A DNA stretch of 8,001 bases from a virus (Duplodnaviria > Heunggongvirae > Uroviricota > Caudoviricetes), in IMG/VR virus record IMGVR_UViG_2698536408_000011; one strand, given 5' to 3'. Under the pieces are notes generated by a model. That model was not told the origin of the DNA. It saw nothing but the letters and a program-made list of their open reading frames with translations, and did not search any database. A program made the translations under genes and the position numbers. Shown here one piece after another: positions 1 to 8,001 of this stretch (position 1 is its first letter; each line of letters starts with the position of its first letter).

Positions 1-794
<794 letters not shown>

Positions 795-886: not shown

Positions 887-3067
887 TCATTCTTCCTCTG
901 GATAGCTTGAACTTAAGAGCATATCCTGCGTGAACTGGTCATTAGCTGATTGATTGAAAGTAAAGAAAGATGGTTCATCTGGTCGAACGACAACTTGACC
1001 ACCAAGTGAAACTTTCACTGGCTCCTGAATACGCTTACTCAAAGCACTAATTTCATCCCTCAGACCCTGAATATCTGCACTCGTTAATGCTGAATCTTGC
1101 TTAATGTTGTTTAACTCTGGATGATTGAATCTTGCAATATTCATTGTGGCATTGTTAAACAATTCACCCATTGAACTAAAAATTCTACTCCATCCTTCGT
1201 TAATCATATTCGGTTTATTAGGGTCACCAGAATACACGGGATTAAAGTCACTACCCACACCTACCCCAGACGGATGCATATTAGCGTTTTTGACTACTTC
1301 CTGATTCATAAAATCCAGTGCTTTCTTCAATGCATATAAACCAAGAGTGACGCCTCTGATTTGTGGAATCATTGAAGCTAATGCTAACGCTGTTTCATAA
1401 CCGTCATCAGCATAACCAATTGCAAGAGCACTACCTACACCACCAGCTACACCTTTCAGTTTTCCACCACCTTTACCAGTAGCTACCTGACCAGCCACCT
1501 GATTAGCTCTTGTACCTAACGTTGTGATTGCTCTTGTCAGGTTCATAACCCCTGTAGTAGCACTGAATAGCGTCTTTGCAGATAACGCTATAGCAAGACC
1601 TTTGACGAAGTTGATAAAACCATCACCGACTTCATCAAGTAGTTTTCGTTTAGTGTCATCAAGGCTGTAATAGAACTTCTTAGTCTGTAAAATCCAGCCT
1701 TCAATGGTGTTATTGAATACGCGAATATCATCTACACCAGCTTTAAGCATGTCGATAAGTCCACCGATAGCATCACCAGCGATAGAAGAACTCATCCCCA
1801 TTTCACTAAGCAGGTTACTCAGGCTGGATAAGAAGCCGTTTAGCTCATCCTGTGAACCTGAGAAGATTTTCACCATCGTATCATCCCAATTGTTTGCTAA
1901 CTTACCTAAAGCTGTCTGAGTGCTCTTAGTGACTTCAGCCCAGCCACCCGCTTTATCAATCATCAAGCCCATCTGTTTAGCGACTTTAGGGAGAGTATCA
2001 GCGGAAAGTACCTTCCCGTTTTTCATGGCTGCATCAAGCTCTGTAGCAGTCATACCCAATGCTTCAGCGAATAGCTTAAATGCACCAGCCATACGGTCAC
2101 CTAACTGCCCACGTAATTCCTCAGCCTGAATCTTGCCCTTGCTCGCCATCTGCTCAAATGCTCTCAAAATGCCGTTTAGCTCATCGTTAGAAAGCCCCAT
2201 TAAGCGACTCATAGCCGTTGCATTACCAAATAGCTCCTGTGTCTGTTCCTGTGACATAGAACCCTGAGCACCTGCTGCAAACTTAGCGTAGCTTGATAGC
2301 CCTTCAGAGATATTAAGACCTGTCTTGTCTGCTAAATTTCGAATAAATACCTCAGCTTCAGATGCTTTATCACCAAGTACAAACTTAGCGGCTCTCTGTG
2401 CGGAATCTCGTTTAAGACCTGCATTCATAATGGCCTTGTAAGCGTTAAGAGCACCCATCACAGAGTAAAATGCACCAGATAATTTAATCGCATTGCTTGC
2501 AAGATTATTAAATGCGTCGCTTGTATTGTTAATGCTGGCGGTCTTTGTCTGTGACCTGAGTTTATTCAACGTTTCACGAAGAGATTGATTTAATTTTGCA
2601 AGTTCAGCGTTAAACTTTTCACTTCCAATATTACCAGCCTTACCGCTTAAGCTGTAATACTGTGCTTTAAACATTTTAGCCATCAGCGGATTAATATCAC
2701 CAAGCTTAGACATATTCACGCTATGCGCTGCTGTGATTGCTCTGTTTCCGCTAATTCGTGGTTGCCTTGATTGTTTTGGAGGATTAACAGTGTCATTAAA
2801 TCTGGTGGCAAACTGAAATGCTTTTGTGCTTCTTGCTCTCTGCTCAATCTTGTCAAAGGTCTTATTAAACTTCCTTTCAAGCTGCCCTAAAGAACTTGTC
2901 AGATTGCTGTCAAGTTGCTTGGTATCGACCTTAAACGCTCTATTCAAATTGCGTTCAATTCTTTGTGCTGACTGCAAAGCTGCCTTTTCAACTCTTTGCA
3001 AGCCCTTAATAACGTTTTCACTGAAACTAAGTTCAACGATAAAACTATCAACTGTGAATTTGCTCAT
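887..3067 (-). CDS. Phage tail tape measure protein (726 aa)
   Basis: ATG at 3067..3065 follows AAGAGGTGA with 7-nt spacing. The N-terminal third is alpha-helical and coiled-coil-like. The central region (SRLMGLSNDELNGILRAFEQMASKGKIQAEELRGQLGDRMAGAFKLFAEALGMTATELDAAMKNGKVLSADTLPKV) matches the conserved tape-measure domain pattern (GK-x-x-x-EELR-x-QLG-x-R-x-x-GA). A Gly-rich hydrophobic stretch (GKGGGKLKGVAGGVGSALAIGYA) follows, as in lambda gpH-type proteins. Stop is TGA at 887-889. Confidence 0.85.
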   Translation of the reverse strand: MSKFTVDSFIVELSFSENVIKGLQRVEKAALQSAQRIERNLNRAFKVDTKQLDSNLTSSLGQLERKFNKTFDKIEQRARSTKAFQFATRFNDTVNPPKQSRQPRISGNRAITAAHSVNMSKLGDINPLMAKMFKAQYYSLSGKAGNIGSEKFNAELAKLNQSLRETLNKLRSQTKTASINNTSDAFNNLASNAIKLSGAFYSVMGALNAYKAIMNAGLKRDSAQRAAKFVLGDKASEAEVFIRNLADKTGLNISEGLSSYAKFAAGAQGSMSQEQTQELFGNATAMSRLMGLSNDELNGILRAFEQMASKGKIQAEELRGQLGDRMAGAFKLFAEALGMTATELDAAMKNGKVLSADTLPKVAKQMGLMIDKAGGWAEVTKSTQTALGKLANNWDDTMVKIFSGSQDELNGFLSSLSNLLSEMGMSSSIAGDAIGGLIDMLKAGVDDIRVFNNTIEGWILQTKKFYYSLDDTKRKLLDEVGDGFINFVKGLAIALSAKTLFSATTGVMNLTRAITTLGTRANQVAGQVATGKGGGKLKGVAGGVGSALAIGYADDGYETALALASMIPQIRGVTLGLYALKKALDFMNQEVVKNANMHPSGVGVGSDFNPVYSGDPNKPNMINEGWSRIFSSMGELFNNATMNIARFNHPELNNIKQDSALTSADIQGLRDEISALSKRIQEPVKVSLGGQVVVRPDEPSFFTFNQSANDQFTQDMLLSSSYPEEE

Positions 3068-3099
3068 TCATGTTTCACCTCTTTAAGTGTTCATATACG

Positions 3100-4888: not shown

Positions 4889-5034
4889 TTTTAAAATCCT
4901 TCCTGTATCGCATTCTAAGACGTTTTAACCCCTTTTTTAGACCACTTAAGGCGATTCCCTAAGTTACCCTGATTAGGGGCTTAAAAACGTTTCTGGTGCG
5001 TCTGGTAAAGCCTGAGAGATATGTTTTGCTGTTT

Positions 5035-5250
5035 TTAGCTCAAGTCTGAGACTAATAGCCCCATCTGGTGACCGTAGTCTTTTAACCAGCTTTGCTTAAC
5101 CGGAGTCTTCAGAGAATAGTTAGGGGCTGACAAGTGAAGATAGATATCATCTTTGCCGTGGATACTTCCCCATCCTTCGTATAACTCAAGCAAGTTTTCA
5201 AAATAACGAAATGCTTTATTAGTCTGAAGTTGTACTGTGATAGTTTTCAT
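5035..5250 (-). CDS. Hypothetical small protein (71 aa from ATG 5250; alternative ATG at 5262 gives 75 aa)
   Basis: Third gene of a coupled trio. The ATG at 5250..5248 overlaps the TGA stop of the upstream gene as TGATG. The protein begins MKTITVQLQTNKAFRYFENLLELYEGWGS.... No family recognised. Confidence 0.55.
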   Translation of the reverse strand: MKTITVQLQTNKAFRYFENLLELYEGWGSIHGKDDIYLHLSAPNYSLKTPVKQSWLKDYGHQMGLLVSDLS

Positions 5251-5471
5251 CAAGCACCCCATTCAGAAATAAGCTTAATTCCCTGCTCAAGCTGTTCAGG
5301 GTCGTTATAGTCGAGTATTACCAGTGGCTTTAATTCGTGTTTAAGCTGGTGGATTTGAGAGGGTTTTAATCGTTTGTTTGCTTTGAGGGTCACATCTTCA
5401 AATTCAGCATCTGCTAAATTCTGTCTGATTAGGTGGCGGCCAAGTGTGGAATATTGGAACCTATAACACAT
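5250..5471 (-). CDS. Hypothetical small protein (73 aa)
   Basis: The ATG at 5471..5469 overlaps the TAA stop of the 96-aa gene as TAATG and follows GGAGG. The protein begins MCYRFQYSTLGRHLIRQNLADAEF.... No family recognised. Confidence 0.6.
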   Translation of the reverse strand: MCYRFQYSTLGRHLIRQNLADAEFEDVTLKANKRLKPSQIHQLKHELKPLVILDYNDPEQLEQGIKLISEWGA

Positions 5472-5761
5472 TAAACCTCCAATCTATCCGCCAGTTGATG
5501 GACCTTAGCGCTTAACACCTGAATCATTGAGCAACCTGCTACTGCGGACTGTGCTTTGAGTAGTTCCAGTTGGCCCGTTGTGATTCTGATGGCCTTAGAA
5601 CCCTCTGCGACGCCCTTAACGTTATCGAAAGGGCTAAGGTTTACCGACTCTTTTAAAATCTCCCCAACAAGCGCTGTGTGCTTCATATCGGGATATTTGG
5701 CTTTGATTGCTGCCAGTCGTTCAAATGCCTCTGGCAAAAGGCGCGTAACTGTGTGAGTCAT
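5471..5761 (-). CDS. Hypothetical small protein (96 aa), first gene of the coupled trio; possible small DNA-binding regulator
   Basis: The ATG at 5761..5759 follows AAGGAG with 9-nt spacing; the longer ORF from ATG 5791 has no Shine-Dalgarno. The two halves (TVTRLLPEAFERLAAIKAKY... and AIRITTGQLELLKAQSAVAG...) each resemble a strand-helix-helix unit, loosely like ribbon-helix-helix regulators. This is weak and not diagnostic. Confidence 0.55.
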   Translation of the reverse strand: MTHTVTRLLPEAFERLAAIKAKYPDMKHTALVGEILKESVNLSPFDNVKGVAEGSKAIRITTGQLELLKAQSAVAGCSMIQVLSAKVHQLADRLEV

Positions 5762-5797
5762 TGTAAAAATCTCCTTAAATCTCTTACTCATACTACA

Positions 5798-5848
5798 ATC
5801 TTAACATCTATTTAACATATTGTCAGTACCTCATTTACATGATACTAT
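5798..5848. promoter_or_regulatory. Candidate divergent sigma70-type promoters with overlapping -35 hexamers
   Basis: Plus strand: TTGTCA (5820-5825), 17 bp, TACTAT (5843-5848), pointing at the plus-strand small ORF (ATG 5899). Minus strand: CTGACA (rc of 5821-5826), 17 bp, TAAGAT (rc of 5798-5803), pointing at the 96-aa operon (ATG 5761). Hexamer matching by eye only. Confidence 0.35.
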
Positions 5849-5898
5849 GGTTGTAGGGGCTGATACAGGTGCTGTTTCCTTTCACAAAAGGAAAATTA

Positions 5899-6075
5899 AT
5901 GCATGATTTTTTCACAGCAATTATTGAATCTCATCGTTTTAGCTCGTTGGGCTTTGCGGTATTTATTGTGCTATTGGTGTTTTGCGTTATGAATCGAGTC
6001 ATTACAAAAAAGACAAAGCTTACAATTCGACTTAAACTTCTTCGTGTTGAGATAGAGATTTCAGTAAATAAATAG
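5899..6075 (+). CDS. Putative small membrane protein (58 aa; one hydrophobic helix then a basic C-terminus); the only credible plus-strand gene
   Basis: ATG at 5899 follows AAAAGGAAA with ~6-nt spacing (the ORF track starts at an upstream GTG, 5869). The protein is MHDFFTAIIESHRFSSLGFAVFIVLLVFCVMNRVITKKTKLTIRLKLLRVEIEISVNK. It lies in an otherwise non-coding gap and does not overlap any minus-strand gene. It converges on the 98-aa gene with only 9 bp between stop codons. Confidence 0.45.
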   Translation: MHDFFTAIIESHRFSSLGFAVFIVLLVFCVMNRVITKKTKLTIRLKLLRVEIEISVNK

Positions 6076-6084
6076 CTGGTGGCC

Positions 6085-6381
6085 TTACCGGCACTTTCCC
6101 TTGATAATATTGGTGGCCCTCAGATTACCGGGGTCACCGTCTTTTAATCGTAGCTGGTGGACTGAATCCCATAAATCGTAATGATACAGCACCGCAAACT
6201 TCAAAGCGTCAATCTTTAAATCTGTCACATCATCGACGAAATAATAATCCCTCCCTTCTTTCTTCGGTCGAATCCGGTAAACTTCCCCGTGAGTATCTTT
6301 CATCAAGTAACCTTCACGAGAAATGCTGTAACGTCTGAGTAAATAGTCACGGTATTTTCTCTCGCCATTATAAGTTTTCAT
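6085..6381 (-). CDS. Hypothetical protein (98 aa), translationally coupled to the replication initiator gene
   Basis: The ATG at 6381..6379 overlaps the TAA stop of the upstream gene as TAATG and follows GGAGGAATG. The protein begins MKTYNGERKYRDYLLRRYSISREGY.... No family recognised. It sits where a helicase loader would be in lambdoid phages but is far too small. Confidence 0.6.
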   Translation of the reverse strand: MKTYNGERKYRDYLLRRYSISREGYLMKDTHGEVYRIRPKKEGRDYYFVDDVTDLKIDALKFAVLYHYDLWDSVHQLRLKDGDPGNLRATNIIKGKCR

Positions 6382-7334
6382 TAAAACATTCCTCCACCAT
6401 AAACACGTCTGACTTTAACTTTTTCTTTCTTTGGCTCGGTGTGAGTTTTCTTTTTTGGTGTAAAAGTAAAATCATCGTCACTATCATCAAAGTCATCGAG
6501 GTCACTAACCTTGTTCTTTAGCTTCGCATTTCTGAATCTTTCTTTAATTTCTGCTTTACGCTGTTCACGTTTCAATTCCTCTTCAGGGTCTTCTTCATCA
6601 TCAAGGTCAACATCCGGTAATTCATCATCAGTGGCGGGGCACTGTGTGTTTTTATGGTCACTACTAGCAATCACATCAGAGATTTTATCTTCCTTTTTAA
6701 CGACCTCTTTAGCAGCTTCACTATCAAGGTCATCTAAGTCAGATGTTTTAACAGTCTCTTTAATAGCCTCTTCAATACCAAGAGAATCACATTCATGTGA
6801 ATCACAGAGCGAAGCTCCCTTCTTAAAATATTCTTCTTCAAAGTCATCTTCTTTATTGTTATTAATAAGTTCTTTCTTGTTATTACTGTTATTATACGTG
6901 TCAAAGATTTTGACTGACTGAGTAAAAAATTTTGACTCAGTGGGTAAAGAATTTTGACTCAGTGGGTCATCTTTCTTGACTGACTGAGTAACTTTAGACT
7001 CCAGCTTTGCCTTTCTGGCTTCCTTAGCTGTAAGCTCTGTTAAAACCTCCGGTACTTCATCAAGTGAATAAACTTTAATAACACACTGATTGCTTGCAAC
7101 GTTAGTTTTCTTGATTAAACCATGTGCCTCAAGTTGTTTCATACATGCAATCACGGATGTTCTTGTGATTCCAGCATACTGACCAAGATGAGCATATGAA
7201 GGGGTATAATATTGCCCCTTATCGTGATAAAACTTTTGTTCATTCAACATGACAGTGTAAATAATACGGTCGGCAGCTTTAACGCCATTAGTCATCTGAT
7301 AAATACGGTCATCAAACATGTGGAATTTTTCCAT
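6381..7334 (-). CDS. Phage replication initiator / replisome organiser (lambda O-like; 317 aa from the internal ATG) with the origin embedded in its coding sequence
   Basis: The ATG at 7334..7332 follows AAAAAGGAAAATATA; the ORF track start is an upstream TTG at 7391. The N-terminal ~100 aa (MEKFHMFDDRIYQMTNGVKAADRIIYTVMLNEQ...GITRTSVIACMKQLEAHGLIKK) has the winged-helix pattern of phage replication initiator N-domains. Mid-gene iterons and an AT-rich tract follow, then a long acidic low-complexity C-terminal domain (DLDD/DVDLDDEED repeats). Confidence 0.7.
   Translation of the reverse strand: MEKFHMFDDRIYQMTNGVKAADRIIYTVMLNEQKFYHDKGQYYTPSYAHLGQYAGITRTSVIACMKQLEAHGLIKKTNVASNQCVIKVYSLDEVPEVLTELTAKEARKAKLESKVTQSVKKDDPLSQNSLPTESKFFTQSVKIFDTYNNSNNKKELINNNKEDDFEEEYFKKGASLCDSHECDSLGIEEAIKETVKTSDLDDLDSEAAKEVVKKEDKISDVIASSDHKNTQCPATDDELPDVDLDDEEDPEEELKREQRKAEIKERFRNAKLKNKVSDLDDFDDSDDDFTFTPKKKTHTEPKKEKVKVRRVYGGGMF
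6841..6992. other. Putative phage origin of replication (iterons plus adjacent AT-rich unwinding tract) inside the initiator gene
   Basis: The iterons at 6908-6992 are followed, in the direction of gene transcription, by a ~75% AT tract at 6841-6907 (ttctttattgttattaataagttctttcttgttattactgttattatacg). This matches the lambda ori arrangement within gene O. Confidence 0.6.
6908..6992. repeat. Four direct iterons with ~22-bp periodicity, each starting TTGACT
   Basis: TTGACTGACTGAGTAA is identical at 6911-6926 and 6976-6991. ATTTTGACTCAGTGGGT is identical at 6929-6945 and 6951-6967. TTGACT cores sit at 6911, 6933, 6955 and 6976. Confidence 0.75.
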
Positions 7335-7425
7335 TATATTTTCCTTTTTAAAAATAAAACAAAGAAAGGGCTGACCACGTATAGTGACCAACCCCAGAGG
7401 GAGTGAATTAATTAGAAGATGGACT

Positions 7426-7570
7426 GATAAAGGAACTCAGAAGCCTGAGCGATTACGCGAGTATTAACAGCAAAAGGAAAAGCCTTGATTGAATAAGAGG
7501 CCGTGAAAATCTGTCAATACCCTGACGCCTCCCAACGTTGTAACCTCTTAATGTTCTGAGTTCTTTTATC
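7426..7570. repeat. 17-bp inverted repeat pair (16/17 match: GATAAAGGAACTCAGAA / TTCTGAGTTCTTTTATC) flanking a 111-bp segment
   Basis: Read directly: 7426-7442 against the reverse complement of 7554-7570. The enclosed segment contains a consensus TTGACA hexamer (rc of 7512-7517) pointing toward the replication gene, with only weak -10 candidates. Confidence 0.6.
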
Positions 7571-7639
7571 ACCCCATATAAAAACCATAACAGATGTGAT
7601 TATAAATTGCAACAATTATTTCACAGAATAATTACTGAT

Positions 7640-7702
7640 TGGTCATTTATTGTTCACAGGGATACTTCTTAATATCTGAATCACCTATCTTGTAAATGAC
7701 CA
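7640..7702. repeat. 10-bp inverted repeat (TGGTCATTTA / TAAATGACCA) with 43-bp spacer, between the HTH ORF and the IR-flanked segment
   Basis: Read directly: 7640-7649 against the reverse complement of 7693-7702. Confidence 0.55.
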
Positions 7703-7716
7703 TATTTATGAGAATT

Positions 7717-7863
7717 TTAGCTCAACCTTTGAGCAATCCTGTATGACGTGCTCAGAGGCATTCTGAGAGCATCTGCAATGCACTTAATGGGTTTTCCTTG
7801 CCTGTATAGTTTTATGAAGCTGTCGAGCGTCTCAGGTGGGTAAATGGTGGGTCTTCCTCTCAA
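7717..7863 (-). CDS. Short helix-turn-helix ORF resembling the C-terminal DNA-binding domain of serine recombinases (invertase/resolvase type); possibly a gene fragment
   Basis: The frame is open from 7896 to the TAA stop at 7719..7717. It has no in-frame ATG near its 5' end; the only candidate start is a TTG at 7863..7861, 1 nt after AGAGGAGG. The translation (..NRGGLRGRPTIYPPETLDSFIKLYRQGKPIKCIADALRMPLSTSYRIAQRLS) shows a Gly-Arg-Pro arm followed by three helices ending in STxYR, as in Hin/Gin-type C-terminal domains. Neither upstream frame reaching the window edge looks like a recombinase catalytic domain. Confidence 0.35.
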   Translation of the reverse strand: MRGRPTIYPPETLDSFIKLYRQGKPIKCIADALRMPLSTSYRIAQRLS

Positions 7864-8001
7864 GCCTCCTCTGTTAATGATGGTTAACGGTAATGCTTAC
7901 GTGGTTCTTTTTTAAAAACAACGACTGCACTAGGAAACGGTGAACGAATAGTAAGCCCGTTATGGCCTGCTGGTGGAAGGTATTTAACTGCACGATGAAG
8001 A

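What the first reader, a model, noticed from the sequence alone, without database searches (positions are those of the whole stretch)
7717..7896. HTH ORF with recombinase-like DNA-binding domain but no canonical start and no catalytic domain
The frame encodes a GRP arm plus a three-helix HTH ending in STxYR, like the C-terminal domain of serine invertases and resolvases. It is only 59 codons long, starts at best with a TTG placed 1 nt after AGAGGAGG, and neither upstream frame encodes anything recognisable. It may be a relic of a recombinase that once acted on the adjacent inverted repeats, or a recombinase-derived standalone DNA-binding regulator. The frame junction sits near a T6/A5 homopolymer run (7906-7918), so an assembly indel cannot be excluded.
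Basis: partly seen in the sequence, partly recalled or inferred. Interest (0 to 1): 0.4.

Follow-up and report, generated by a model that had tools for sequence, protein, structure and literature searches.

The report
Orphaned tail of a broken methyltransferase gene
The small DNA-binding reading frame is not a relic of a recombinase but the cut-off last quarter of a DNA adenine methyltransferase gene, which a 37-base deletion has split in this sequence and which is intact in all relatives examined, so it is an ordinary pseudogene fragment.

Summary
The 59-codon frame at 7717-7896 (minus strand) is real. It passes Pfam's threshold for the resolvase-type HTH (HTH_7), and the GRP arm, the three helices and the AGAGGAGG-C-TTG context are as described.

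It is not a recombinase remnant. In near-identical Shigella sonnei loci (99.99% DNA identity) and in E. coli relatives, the same codons are residues 163-220 of one intact 220-aa gene: a Dam-family (PF05869) orphan N6-adenine methyltransferase with a C-terminal HTH.

The window lacks 37 bp at 7894|7895 (codons 151-162 plus one base). The methyltransferase frame therefore stops early at 7884-7886 and the HTH is stranded behind a TAA at 7897-7899.

The SD-like tract and TTG also occur inside intact copies, where they encode Arg-Gly-Gly-Leu. TTG is not conserved in relatives, so it is not an evolved start.

I found the deletion in no other sequence, including 5,426 complete E. coli genomes. Whether it is a private mutation or an assembly error needs reads.

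Interest is low. The Dam-HTH architecture and the surrounding island are the more interesting leads.

The parts
7717..7896 (-). Orphaned 3' end of the Dam-HTH methyltransferase gene. It consists of one junction codon (GCA), then codons 163-220 of the intact 220-aa protein, then the native stop (7717-7719). The GRP arm is at 7857-7849. The predicted helices are at 7836-7801, 7788-7765 and 7755-7723.
   Evidence: Translation. The amino acids are identical to the C-terminus of the intact S. sonnei and E. coli proteins. Pfam HTH_7 scores 24.8 bits, above the 23.8 cut-off. AlphaFold predicts three helices with pLDDT of about 90.
7893..7896 (.). Deletion junction. 37 bp present in all relatives are missing between 7894 and 7895, with a 1-nt ambiguity. 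On the + strand of the S. sonnei type the missing bases are AGCGTGTCACCACAGCAAACCGTCTGTGTAATTTCGT. This removes codons 151-162 (EITQTVCCGDTL) plus one base.
   Evidence: Pairwise alignment with E. coli 67-1. BLAST and direct comparison with ten S. sonnei loci.
7884..8001 (-). 3' part of the truncated methyltransferase reading frame. It runs off the window at 8001. It encodes residues 115-150 of the Dam-family domain, then two foreign codons (Tyr, Arg), then a premature TAA at 7886-7884.
   Evidence: Translation. The stretch 7894-8001 is 100% identical to the intact S. sonnei genes. The domain limits of the intact protein come from PADLOC oMTase (residues 15-143), phrog_111 (14-151) and PF05869.
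7897..7899 (-). TAA that closes the HTH frame upstream. In the intact gene these bases are out of frame, inside CGT-AAG-CAC (Arg148-Lys149-His150).
7861..7872 (-). Purine tract AGAGGAGG (7872-7865), then C, then TTG (7863-7861). These are the codons for Arg170-Gly171-Gly172-Leu173 of the intact protein. They form an incidental SD-like site and the only possible start for a 48-aa stand-alone HTH.
   Evidence: The same 27 nt occur inside all intact S. sonnei copies. The Leu173 codon is CTA or TTA in E. coli relatives. A gene caller called the 48-aa ORF only at contig ends.
7908..7918 (.). It is unchanged in this window.
   Evidence: 7894-8001 is 100% identical to the intact S. sonnei loci. One other assembly (L008) does carry a 1-nt indel here.

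Best explanation
The ORF is the stranded C-terminal DNA-binding domain of a disrupted gene.

**Intact gene.** The intact gene has 220 codons. It encodes an orphan Dam-family N6-adenine DNA methyltransferase (catalytic domain about residues 15-150), a conserved linker (E-I-T/R-Q-T-V-x-C-A/G-D-T) and a Hin/resolvase-like three-helix HTH preceded by a GRP arm (residues about 175-220).

**What happened in the window (shown).** A 37-bp deletion at 7894|7895 removes codons 151-162 plus one base. Translation of the methyltransferase frame now ends after His150-Tyr-Arg at the TAA at 7886-7884. The HTH codons lie in the -1 frame behind a TAA at 7899-7897.

**Consequences (inferred).**
- Only 13 nt lie between the two stops and they contain no slippery sequence, so frameshifting cannot rejoin the two halves.
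- The HTH is most likely untranslated. At best it is made weakly as a 48-aa peptide from TTG 7863 by re-initiation 20 nt after the premature stop.
- The remaining 152-aa methyltransferase keeps the core found in stand-alone family members. It has lost its DNA-binding tail and part of a conserved linker.

**Role of the HTH in the intact protein (inferred).** It anchors or targets the small methyltransferase on DNA, or it acts as an operator-binding autoregulator in the way the separate DNA-binding regions of M.SsoII and M.Ecl18kI do. The methylation specificity is unknown.
For: - Orthologous position in E. coli 67-1: one intact 220-aa CDS annotated as DNA N-6-adenine-methyltransferase, whose last 58 residues equal the finding's peptide. 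The alignment shows a single 37-bp gap in the window.
- The window is 99.99% identical to ten Shigella sonnei loci apart from this gap, one SNP and an IS1. Nine of the ten have a 220-aa PF05869 gene at that position; the tenth (L008) has a homopolymer frameshift there.
- The intact protein occurs on at least 999 contigs and in 528 clusters at 90% identity. Of the best 120, 118 are 220 aa.
- Domain calls for the intact protein: PF05869 at 50.2 bits against a cut-off of 28.1, plus HTH_7; phrog_111 DNA methyltransferase over residues 14-151; PADLOC orphan MTase over residues 15-143, covering the whole 140-position profile.
- Full-length fusions at 37-60% identity exist in about seven 50%-identity clusters, with a conserved linker and HTH. 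One is in Pseudocitrobacter, next to tyrosine integrases.
- The HTH tail is under purifying selection among close relatives (pN 0.008-0.023 against pS 0.025-0.17).
- The SD-like tract and TTG pre-exist inside intact genes, and TTG is not conserved.
- Every junction-spanning hit listed from E. coli complete genomes carries the extra 37 bp.
Against: - The N-terminal two thirds of the gene lie beyond 8001, so intactness of the rest of the gene in this genome is assumed from relatives.
- The deletion was found in no other sequence. It therefore cannot be confirmed as a real allele rather than an assembly error.
- Expression of the 48-aa peptide cannot be excluded. A purine tract read as AGAGG gives a 4-nt spacer, and a gene caller accepts this start.
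- The function of the HTH in the intact protein is untested.
- The AlphaFold model of the methyltransferase domain was poor (pLDDT below 50 for residues 1-179).
Confidence: 0.85

Rival explanations
1. Assembly or sequencing artefact. The source genome really has the intact 220-codon gene and the 37-bp gap was introduced during assembly or consensus calling.
For: - The junction was found nowhere else. There is no single-piece hit among 5,426 complete E. coli genomes, none in the species-representative genomes or JGI metagenomes, none in ten near-identical S. sonnei loci, and the predicted 152-aa product is not among 15 billion proteins.
- S. sonnei draft assemblies often break inside this gene and show two alleles. 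This suggests paralogous copies that confuse assemblers.
- Another assembly (L008) has an obvious error-type indel 15-20 nt away.
Against: - Common sequencing errors give 1-2-nt homopolymer indels, not a clean 37-bp loss with only 1-nt microhomology.
- The flanks are 100% identical on both sides, with no chimeric SNP pattern.
- The exact-match look-up of the 152-aa product assumed an N-terminus that lies outside the window, so its absence is weak evidence.
Confidence: 0.1
2. Functional split gene. The deletion is real and the two halves now work separately: a 152-aa untethered methyltransferase and a 48-aa HTH made from TTG 7863, acting as a small DNA-binding regulator.
For: - A strong purine tract precedes the TTG, which lies 20 nt after the premature stop. 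That arrangement favours re-initiation.
- Prodigal-type callers accept this start.
- The 48 aa contain the GRP arm and all three helices.
- Stand-alone family members of 140-190 aa show that the methyltransferase core can work without an HTH.
Against: - The spacer is 1 nt (at most 4 nt in another pairing register) and the start codon is TTG.
- The site is an accident of Arg-Gly-Gly-Leu codons that are present in intact genes, and TTG is not conserved.
- No relative has a conserved short HTH gene. The short hits (57, 77 and 86 aa) look like fragments of fusions.
- The allele appears to be private, so there is no sign of selection for it.
Confidence: 0.08
3. One reading: a relic of a serine invertase or resolvase whose catalytic domain has decayed, or a recombinase-derived stand-alone regulator.
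For: - HTH_7 match above threshold, and 33% identity over 43 aa to the C-terminus of the neighbouring small serine recombinase of a relative.
- Best fold matches are Sin, Hin and gamma-delta.
Against: - The upstream sequence is 100% identical to the 3' part of a Dam-family methyltransferase domain, not a decayed PF00239 domain.
- All intact orthologues combine PF05869 with the HTH.
- The fusion also occurs in a locus with no serine recombinase gene among the nine ORFs scanned.
Confidence: 0.01

Closest known systems
Phage and prophage orphan Dam-family N6-adenine methyltransferases (Pfam PF05869 'Dam'; NCBIfam TIGR01712 phage_N6A_met; PADLOC 'oMTase')
   Same: The intact orthologue matches PF05869 above threshold, matches the full PADLOC orphan-MTase profile, and has the NPPY/NPPF motif IV. 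It sits on a mobile, phage-like island with no restriction gene seen beside it.
   Different: - It carries an extra 70 residues (linker plus HTH) that most family members lack.
- It scores well below the TIGR01712 equivalog cut-off, 39.5 against 97 bits.
- In this window the gene is split by a 37-bp deletion.
- The S. sonnei allele has NLPY instead of NPPY.
C-terminal DNA-binding domain of small serine recombinases (Hin, gamma-delta and Tn3 resolvase, Sin; Pfam HTH_7 PF02796)
   Same: A GRP minor-groove arm is followed by a three-helix HTH ending in S-T-x-Y-R. The Pfam HTH_7 match is above threshold, and the best fold hits are Sin, Hin and gamma-delta.
   Different: There is no PF00239 catalytic domain. 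The domain is attached to a methyltransferase. The HTH_23 (homeodomain-like) profile scores almost as well, and scores better in the Pseudocitrobacter homologue.
Methyltransferases with a separate DNA-binding, regulatory region (M.SsoII, M.Ecl18kI)
   Same: The concept is the same: a methyltransferase domain joined by a linker to a small DNA-binding region. In those enzymes that region binds an operator and controls transcription (PMC3978073, PMC2760811).
   Different: Those are C5-cytosine methyltransferases of restriction-modification systems, and their regulatory region is N-terminal. Here the enzyme is an orphan N6-adenine methyltransferase with a C-terminal Hin-like HTH. Regulation by this HTH is untested.

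Membership tests
Small serine recombinase (resolvase/invertase) | N-terminal catalytic domain PF00239 with the serine nucleophile | tested here: not met
   The upstream frame in the window is residues 115-150 of a Dam-family methyltransferase. The intact orthologues are PF05869 and have no PF00239.
Small serine recombinase (resolvase/invertase) | C-terminal HTH_7 domain with a GRP arm | tested here: met
   PF02796 scores 24.8 bits against a cut-off of 23.8, aligned from profile position 1 at the GRP arm. It is 33% identical to the C-terminus of a neighbouring recombinase. Fold hits are Sin, Hin and gamma-delta.
Dam family methyltransferase (PF05869) | Pfam PF05869 match above the gathering score | tested here: met
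   The intact E. coli orthologue scores 50.2 bits against 28.1, but over profile positions 9-83 only. The Pseudocitrobacter homologue scores 91.4 bits over positions 9-147. The 38-aa piece inside the window matches nothing on its own.
Dam family methyltransferase (PF05869) | Catalytic motif IV (D/N)PP(Y/F) | tested here: inconclusive
   The motif is NPPY or NPPF in the E. coli orthologues and NLPY in the S. sonnei allele that is otherwise identical to the window. It lies beyond position 8001, so it cannot be read in the window.
Dam family methyltransferase (PF05869) | Uninterrupted reading frame | tested here: not met
   A 37-bp deletion at 7894|7895 causes a premature TAA at 7886-7884.
Phage N-6-adenine-methyltransferase equivalog (TIGR01712) | Score at or above the curated equivalog cut-off (97.05 bits) | tested here: not met
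   The intact orthologue scores 39.5 bits.
Dam family methyltransferase (PF05869) | N6-adenine methylation activity and sequence specificity | not testable with these tools
   This needs methylome sequencing or an enzyme assay.
Stand-alone small HTH regulator (Cro/Ner-like, or a transposase N-terminal HTH) | A conserved short gene of the same size, with its own start, in relatives | tested here: not met
   Relatives have 220-aa fusions. The 48-aa ORF was called only on four contigs, and both contig starts inspected lie inside the intact gene. The TTG is not conserved. No PHROG or NCBIfam family matches the 59-aa peptide.

The most novel reading that the evidence does not exclude
In the intact protein, the recombinase-type HTH may direct this orphan Dam-family methyltransferase to specific sites on its own island. 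One candidate is the block at about 7580-7845, which is 95-100% identical even between relatives whose methyltransferase parts are only 51-75% identical, and which contains a perfect 10-nt inverted repeat just downstream of the gene. Another candidate is the set of sites used by the neighbouring small serine recombinase. Such targeting would couple adenine methylation to control of replication or recombination of an island that looks like a satellite of virulent Felix O1-like phages. The window's deletion would then be a natural uncoupling mutant.
Probability: 0.12. Interest if true: 0.55.

Novelty: already known. Interest (0 to 1): 0.13.

Why it matters
For annotation, 7717-7896 should not be called a gene or a recombinase relic. 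Together with 7884-8001 and beyond, it should be marked as one frameshifted DNA N-6-adenine-methyltransferase pseudogene.

The result has little wider weight. Its only broader lead is that a family of small orphan Dam-type methyltransferases carries a Hin-like DNA-binding tail whose role is unstudied. This family is widespread in E. coli and Shigella and is also present in Pseudocitrobacter. It sits on an uncharacterised island that shares tail genes with virulent Felix O1-like phages.

Tried and rejected
1. **Mosaic breakpoint.** Several E. coli megablast hits stop at window 7892-7894, which suggested a recombination breakpoint at the junction. Rejected: protein alignment shows these are the same 220-aa fusion with a more divergent methyltransferase part.
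2. **Other carriers of the deletion.** None were found in the following searches:
   - an exact junction pattern in genome contigs and metagenome contigs;
   - a junction-spanning megablast against E. coli complete genomes;
   - an exact look-up of the predicted 152-aa product;
   - a look-up of the 48-aa ORF, which returned four contigs; both contig starts inspected lie inside the intact gene.
3. **Programmed frameshift rescue.** Rejected from the sequence. The two stops (7897-7899 and 7884-7886) leave only 13 nt, with no slippery motif. The A-rich run lies upstream of the TAA that closes the HTH frame.
4. **AGAGGAGG-TTG as an evolved internal start.** Rejected: it is present in intact copies, and the Leu codon is CTA or TTA in relatives.
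5. **Structure of the full-length protein.** The methyltransferase domain was modelled poorly (pLDDT below 50) because the alignment was shallow. Only the HTH tail was usable.
6. **PDB sequence search.** The only hit was a weak match to 2LVS, a CRISPR-repeat-binding HTH protein.
7. **Other database searches.** Rfam gave no hit in the window. tblastn of the HTH against 50,697 phage records gave no match.
8. **Literature.** Searches for a described Dam-HTH fusion or for this island found nothing relevant.
9. **Tool failure.** The search for related loci with the 11-sequence alignment failed for lack of a conserved stretch. A smaller alignment gave one locus.

Full report
**Observation**

The finding lies on the minus strand. 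Reading 7896 down to 7720 gives 59 sense codons, ALPLTIINRGGLRGRPTIYPPETLDSFIKLYRQGKPIKCIADALRMPLSTSYRIAQRLS. The stop is at 7717-7719 and a TAA at 7897-7899 closes the frame upstream. The only ATG/GTG/TTG start is TTG at 7863, which gives 48 aa. It follows AGAGGAGG (7872-7865) by one base.

The peptide matches Pfam HTH_7 ('helix-turn-helix domain of resolvase') at 24.8 bits against a cut-off of 23.8 (E 2.4e-5). The alignment begins at the GRP arm. HTH_23 scores 23.1, just under its cut-off. AlphaFold predicts three helices (residues 21-32, 37-44, 48-58) with pLDDT of about 90. The best Foldseek hits in the PDB are the Sin, Hin and gamma-delta DNA-binding domains, although the E-values are weak (at least 0.035), as expected for so short a domain.

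So the descriptive part of the finding holds and is not a chance frame.

The frame read from position 8000 gives LHRAVKYLPPAGHNGLTIRSPFPSAVVVFKKEPRKHYR*, with its stop at 7886-7884. This is not unrecognisable sequence.

A megablast of 5000-8001 against complete E. coli genomes hit 182 chromosomes. In these the region is annotated as one gene, 'DNA N-6-adenine-methyltransferase'. In E. coli 67-1 this gene is 220 codons long. Its translation contains ...LHRAVKYLPPAGHNGLVIRSPFPSAVVVFKKEPRKH-EITQMVCCADTL-LPLTIINRGGLRGRPTIY...RIAQRLS. Both window frames therefore belong to one protein. The DNA alignment shows a single 37-bp gap in the window.

**Closest relatives**

An exact-protein look-up of the neighbouring replication-initiator gene (window 6381-7334) returned ten Shigella sonnei loci. 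The window is 99.99% identical to them over 7.8 kb. There are three differences: one SNP (7586), the absence of an IS1 copy that these loci carry at window 132-141, and the 37 bp missing between 7894 and 7895.

In gene orientation the deletion removes the last base of the His150 codon through the Leu162 codon, that is, codons 151-162 (EITQTVCCGDTL) plus one base. His150 is kept as CAT. Then come Tyr, Arg and TAA. The rest of the protein, Leu163 to Ser220, is left in the -1 frame behind a TAA that in the intact gene is out of frame inside Arg148-Lys149-His150.

Nine of the ten loci have the intact 220-aa gene. The tenth (L008) has a 1-nt indel in the T6/A5 run, in an assembly that also splits the tape measure gene. 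In the window that homopolymer (7908-7918) is unchanged.

**What the intact gene is**

- Pfam PF05869 (Dam) scores 50.2 bits against a cut-off of 28.1, and HTH_7 matches the tail.
- PHROG phrog_111 'DNA methyltransferase' covers residues 14-151.
- The PADLOC 'orphan methyltransferase' profile is covered end to end by residues 15-143.
- The score is below the TIGR01712 equivalog cut-off, 39.5 against 97 bits, so this is a divergent member of the family.

The protein family is abundant. There are 528 clusters at 90% identity, and 118 of the best 120 are 220 aa. The S. sonnei sequence itself occurs on at least 999 contigs.

In a search of 1.84 billion cluster representatives, most relatives are stand-alone proteins of 140-190 aa that match residues about 15-145. 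About seven 50%-identity clusters keep the full fusion at 37-60% identity. These have a conserved linker (E-I-R-Q-T-V-x-C-A-D-T) and a conserved HTH. One such gene (228 aa, 47% identical) lies in Pseudocitrobacter vendiensis next to tyrosine integrases. The architecture therefore does not depend on a serine-recombinase neighbour.

Among the close relatives the tail is under purifying selection, with pN 0.008-0.023 against pS 0.025-0.17.

**Is the TTG a real start?**

The 27 nt AACAGAGGAGGCTTGAGAGGAAGACCC are present inside all intact S. sonnei copies, where they encode Asn-Arg-Gly-Gly-Leu-Arg-Gly-Arg-Pro. In E. coli relatives the Leu codon is CTA or TTA and the Arg-Gly-Gly codons differ. The SD-like tract and the TTG are therefore incidental.

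The 48-aa ORF was called in only four contigs of the 153-billion-gene index. Both contig starts inspected lie inside the intact gene.

Frameshift rescue is excluded by the sequence. Only 13 nt separate the two stops and they hold no slippery motif. Weak re-initiation at the TTG, 20 nt after the premature stop, cannot be excluded.

**Is the deletion real?**

I found it nowhere else:
- Every listed junction-spanning hit in 5,426 complete E. coli genomes comes as two pieces spanning 108 nt (71 + 37), and none is a single piece (likewise 389 against 352 nt).
- The junction pattern is absent from the species-representative genomes and the JGI metagenomes.
- The predicted 152-aa product is not in the 15-billion-protein collection. 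This look-up assumed an N-terminus that I cannot see.

A clean 37-bp loss with 1-nt microhomology and perfect flanks is not a typical sequencing error. However, S. sonnei drafts often break inside this gene and show a second allele, so a misassembly cannot be ruled out without reads. I put about 0.1 on an artefact.

**Mechanism**

Shown: the HTH is separated from the methyltransferase domain and has no conserved start.

Inferred: it is silent or nearly so. The 152-aa product keeps the core seen in stand-alone family members but lacks the tail and 12 conserved linker residues.

The S. sonnei allele also reads NLPY where the other alleles examined (five E. coli loci and 26 cluster representatives) have NPPY or NPPF. 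This hints at prior decay, but the motif lies outside the window.

In the intact protein the HTH most plausibly tethers or targets the small enzyme on DNA, or binds an operator. The latter is what the separate DNA-binding regions of M.SsoII and M.Ecl18kI do (PMC3978073, PMC2760811). This is analogy and has not been tested.

**Context**

The gene sits on an island of about 11 kb found at several chromosomal sites (rutG/ymdF, yciI, yecN). The island is bounded by a large serine recombinase at one end and a small resolvase/invertase at the other. The small recombinase gene lies about 0.5 kb upstream of the methyltransferase gene. Its C-terminus is 33% identical to the finding's HTH. A real recombinase is therefore next door, outside the window, but this ORF is not its relic.

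**Verdict**

This is an ordinary pseudogene fragment of an annotated gene. Interest is low.

Noticed in passing
window 271-706 and 887-3088; L018 (phage garuso) 1240-4247: The island's tape measure gene and the gene after it are in the same order as in virulent Felix O1-like phages (Felixounavirus). They share up to 92-93% nucleotide identity with them (213 phage records hit). The island also has a large serine recombinase and an O-like replication initiator. This layout is reminiscent of satellites of virulent phages such as PLE. I found no literature on it.
   Followed up: partly
window about 7580-7845: This block covers the HTH helices plus about 140 nt downstream of the stop. It is 95-100% identical at the nucleotide level in all relatives examined, including E24377A, whose methyltransferase part is only 51-75% identical. 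The replication-side flank falls to about 50% in three of five relatives. It could be a module junction or a cis-acting site. It contains a perfect 10-nt inverted repeat, TGGTCATTTA (7640-7649) / TAAATGACCA (7693-7702).
   Followed up: partly
window 7419-7456 / 7540-7577 and 7367-7395: There is a 38-nt imperfect inverted repeat (76% complementary, 83 nt apart) between the methyltransferase and replication-initiator genes. A terminator-like hairpin lies on the minus strand just upstream of the initiator start. There is no Rfam match.
   Followed up: no
window 132-141: This is an empty IS1 target site. All nine near-identical S. sonnei chromosomal loci examined carry a 768-bp IS1 insertion here, with these 10 nt duplicated; the tenth locus, a draft contig (L015), ends about here. 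The window does not have the insertion. The source is therefore probably a Shigella or E. coli lineage outside those sampled.
   Followed up: partly
L008 about 9404-9441 (equivalent to window 7908-7918): One S. sonnei assembly has a 1-nt indel in the T6/A5 homopolymer that splits the same methyltransferase gene. The same assembly also splits the tape measure gene, so this is probably long-read error.
   Followed up: yes
L006 8956-9618 (outside the window): The S. sonnei allele of the methyltransferase has NLPY where the other alleles examined (five E. coli loci and 26 cluster representatives) have NPPY or NPPF in catalytic motif IV. S. sonnei drafts also show a second, NPPY-type allele and many contig breaks inside the gene, which suggests two paralogous island copies per genome.
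   Followed up: partly
window 6381-7334 (-): This 317-aa protein matches PHROG replication-initiation (O-like) families over its N-terminal half (E 1.9e-10). It carries a long, highly acidic, low-complexity C-terminal half. RefSeq calls it only 'helix-turn-helix domain-containing protein'.
   Followed up: partly
L019 4974-5660: Pseudocitrobacter vendiensis has a 228-aa Dam-HTH fusion (47% identical) flanked by two tyrosine-integrase genes and an HNH endonuclease gene near tesB/amtB. This is a different mobile context for the same architecture. In this protein HTH_23 passes its Pfam threshold and HTH_7 does not.
   Followed up: partly
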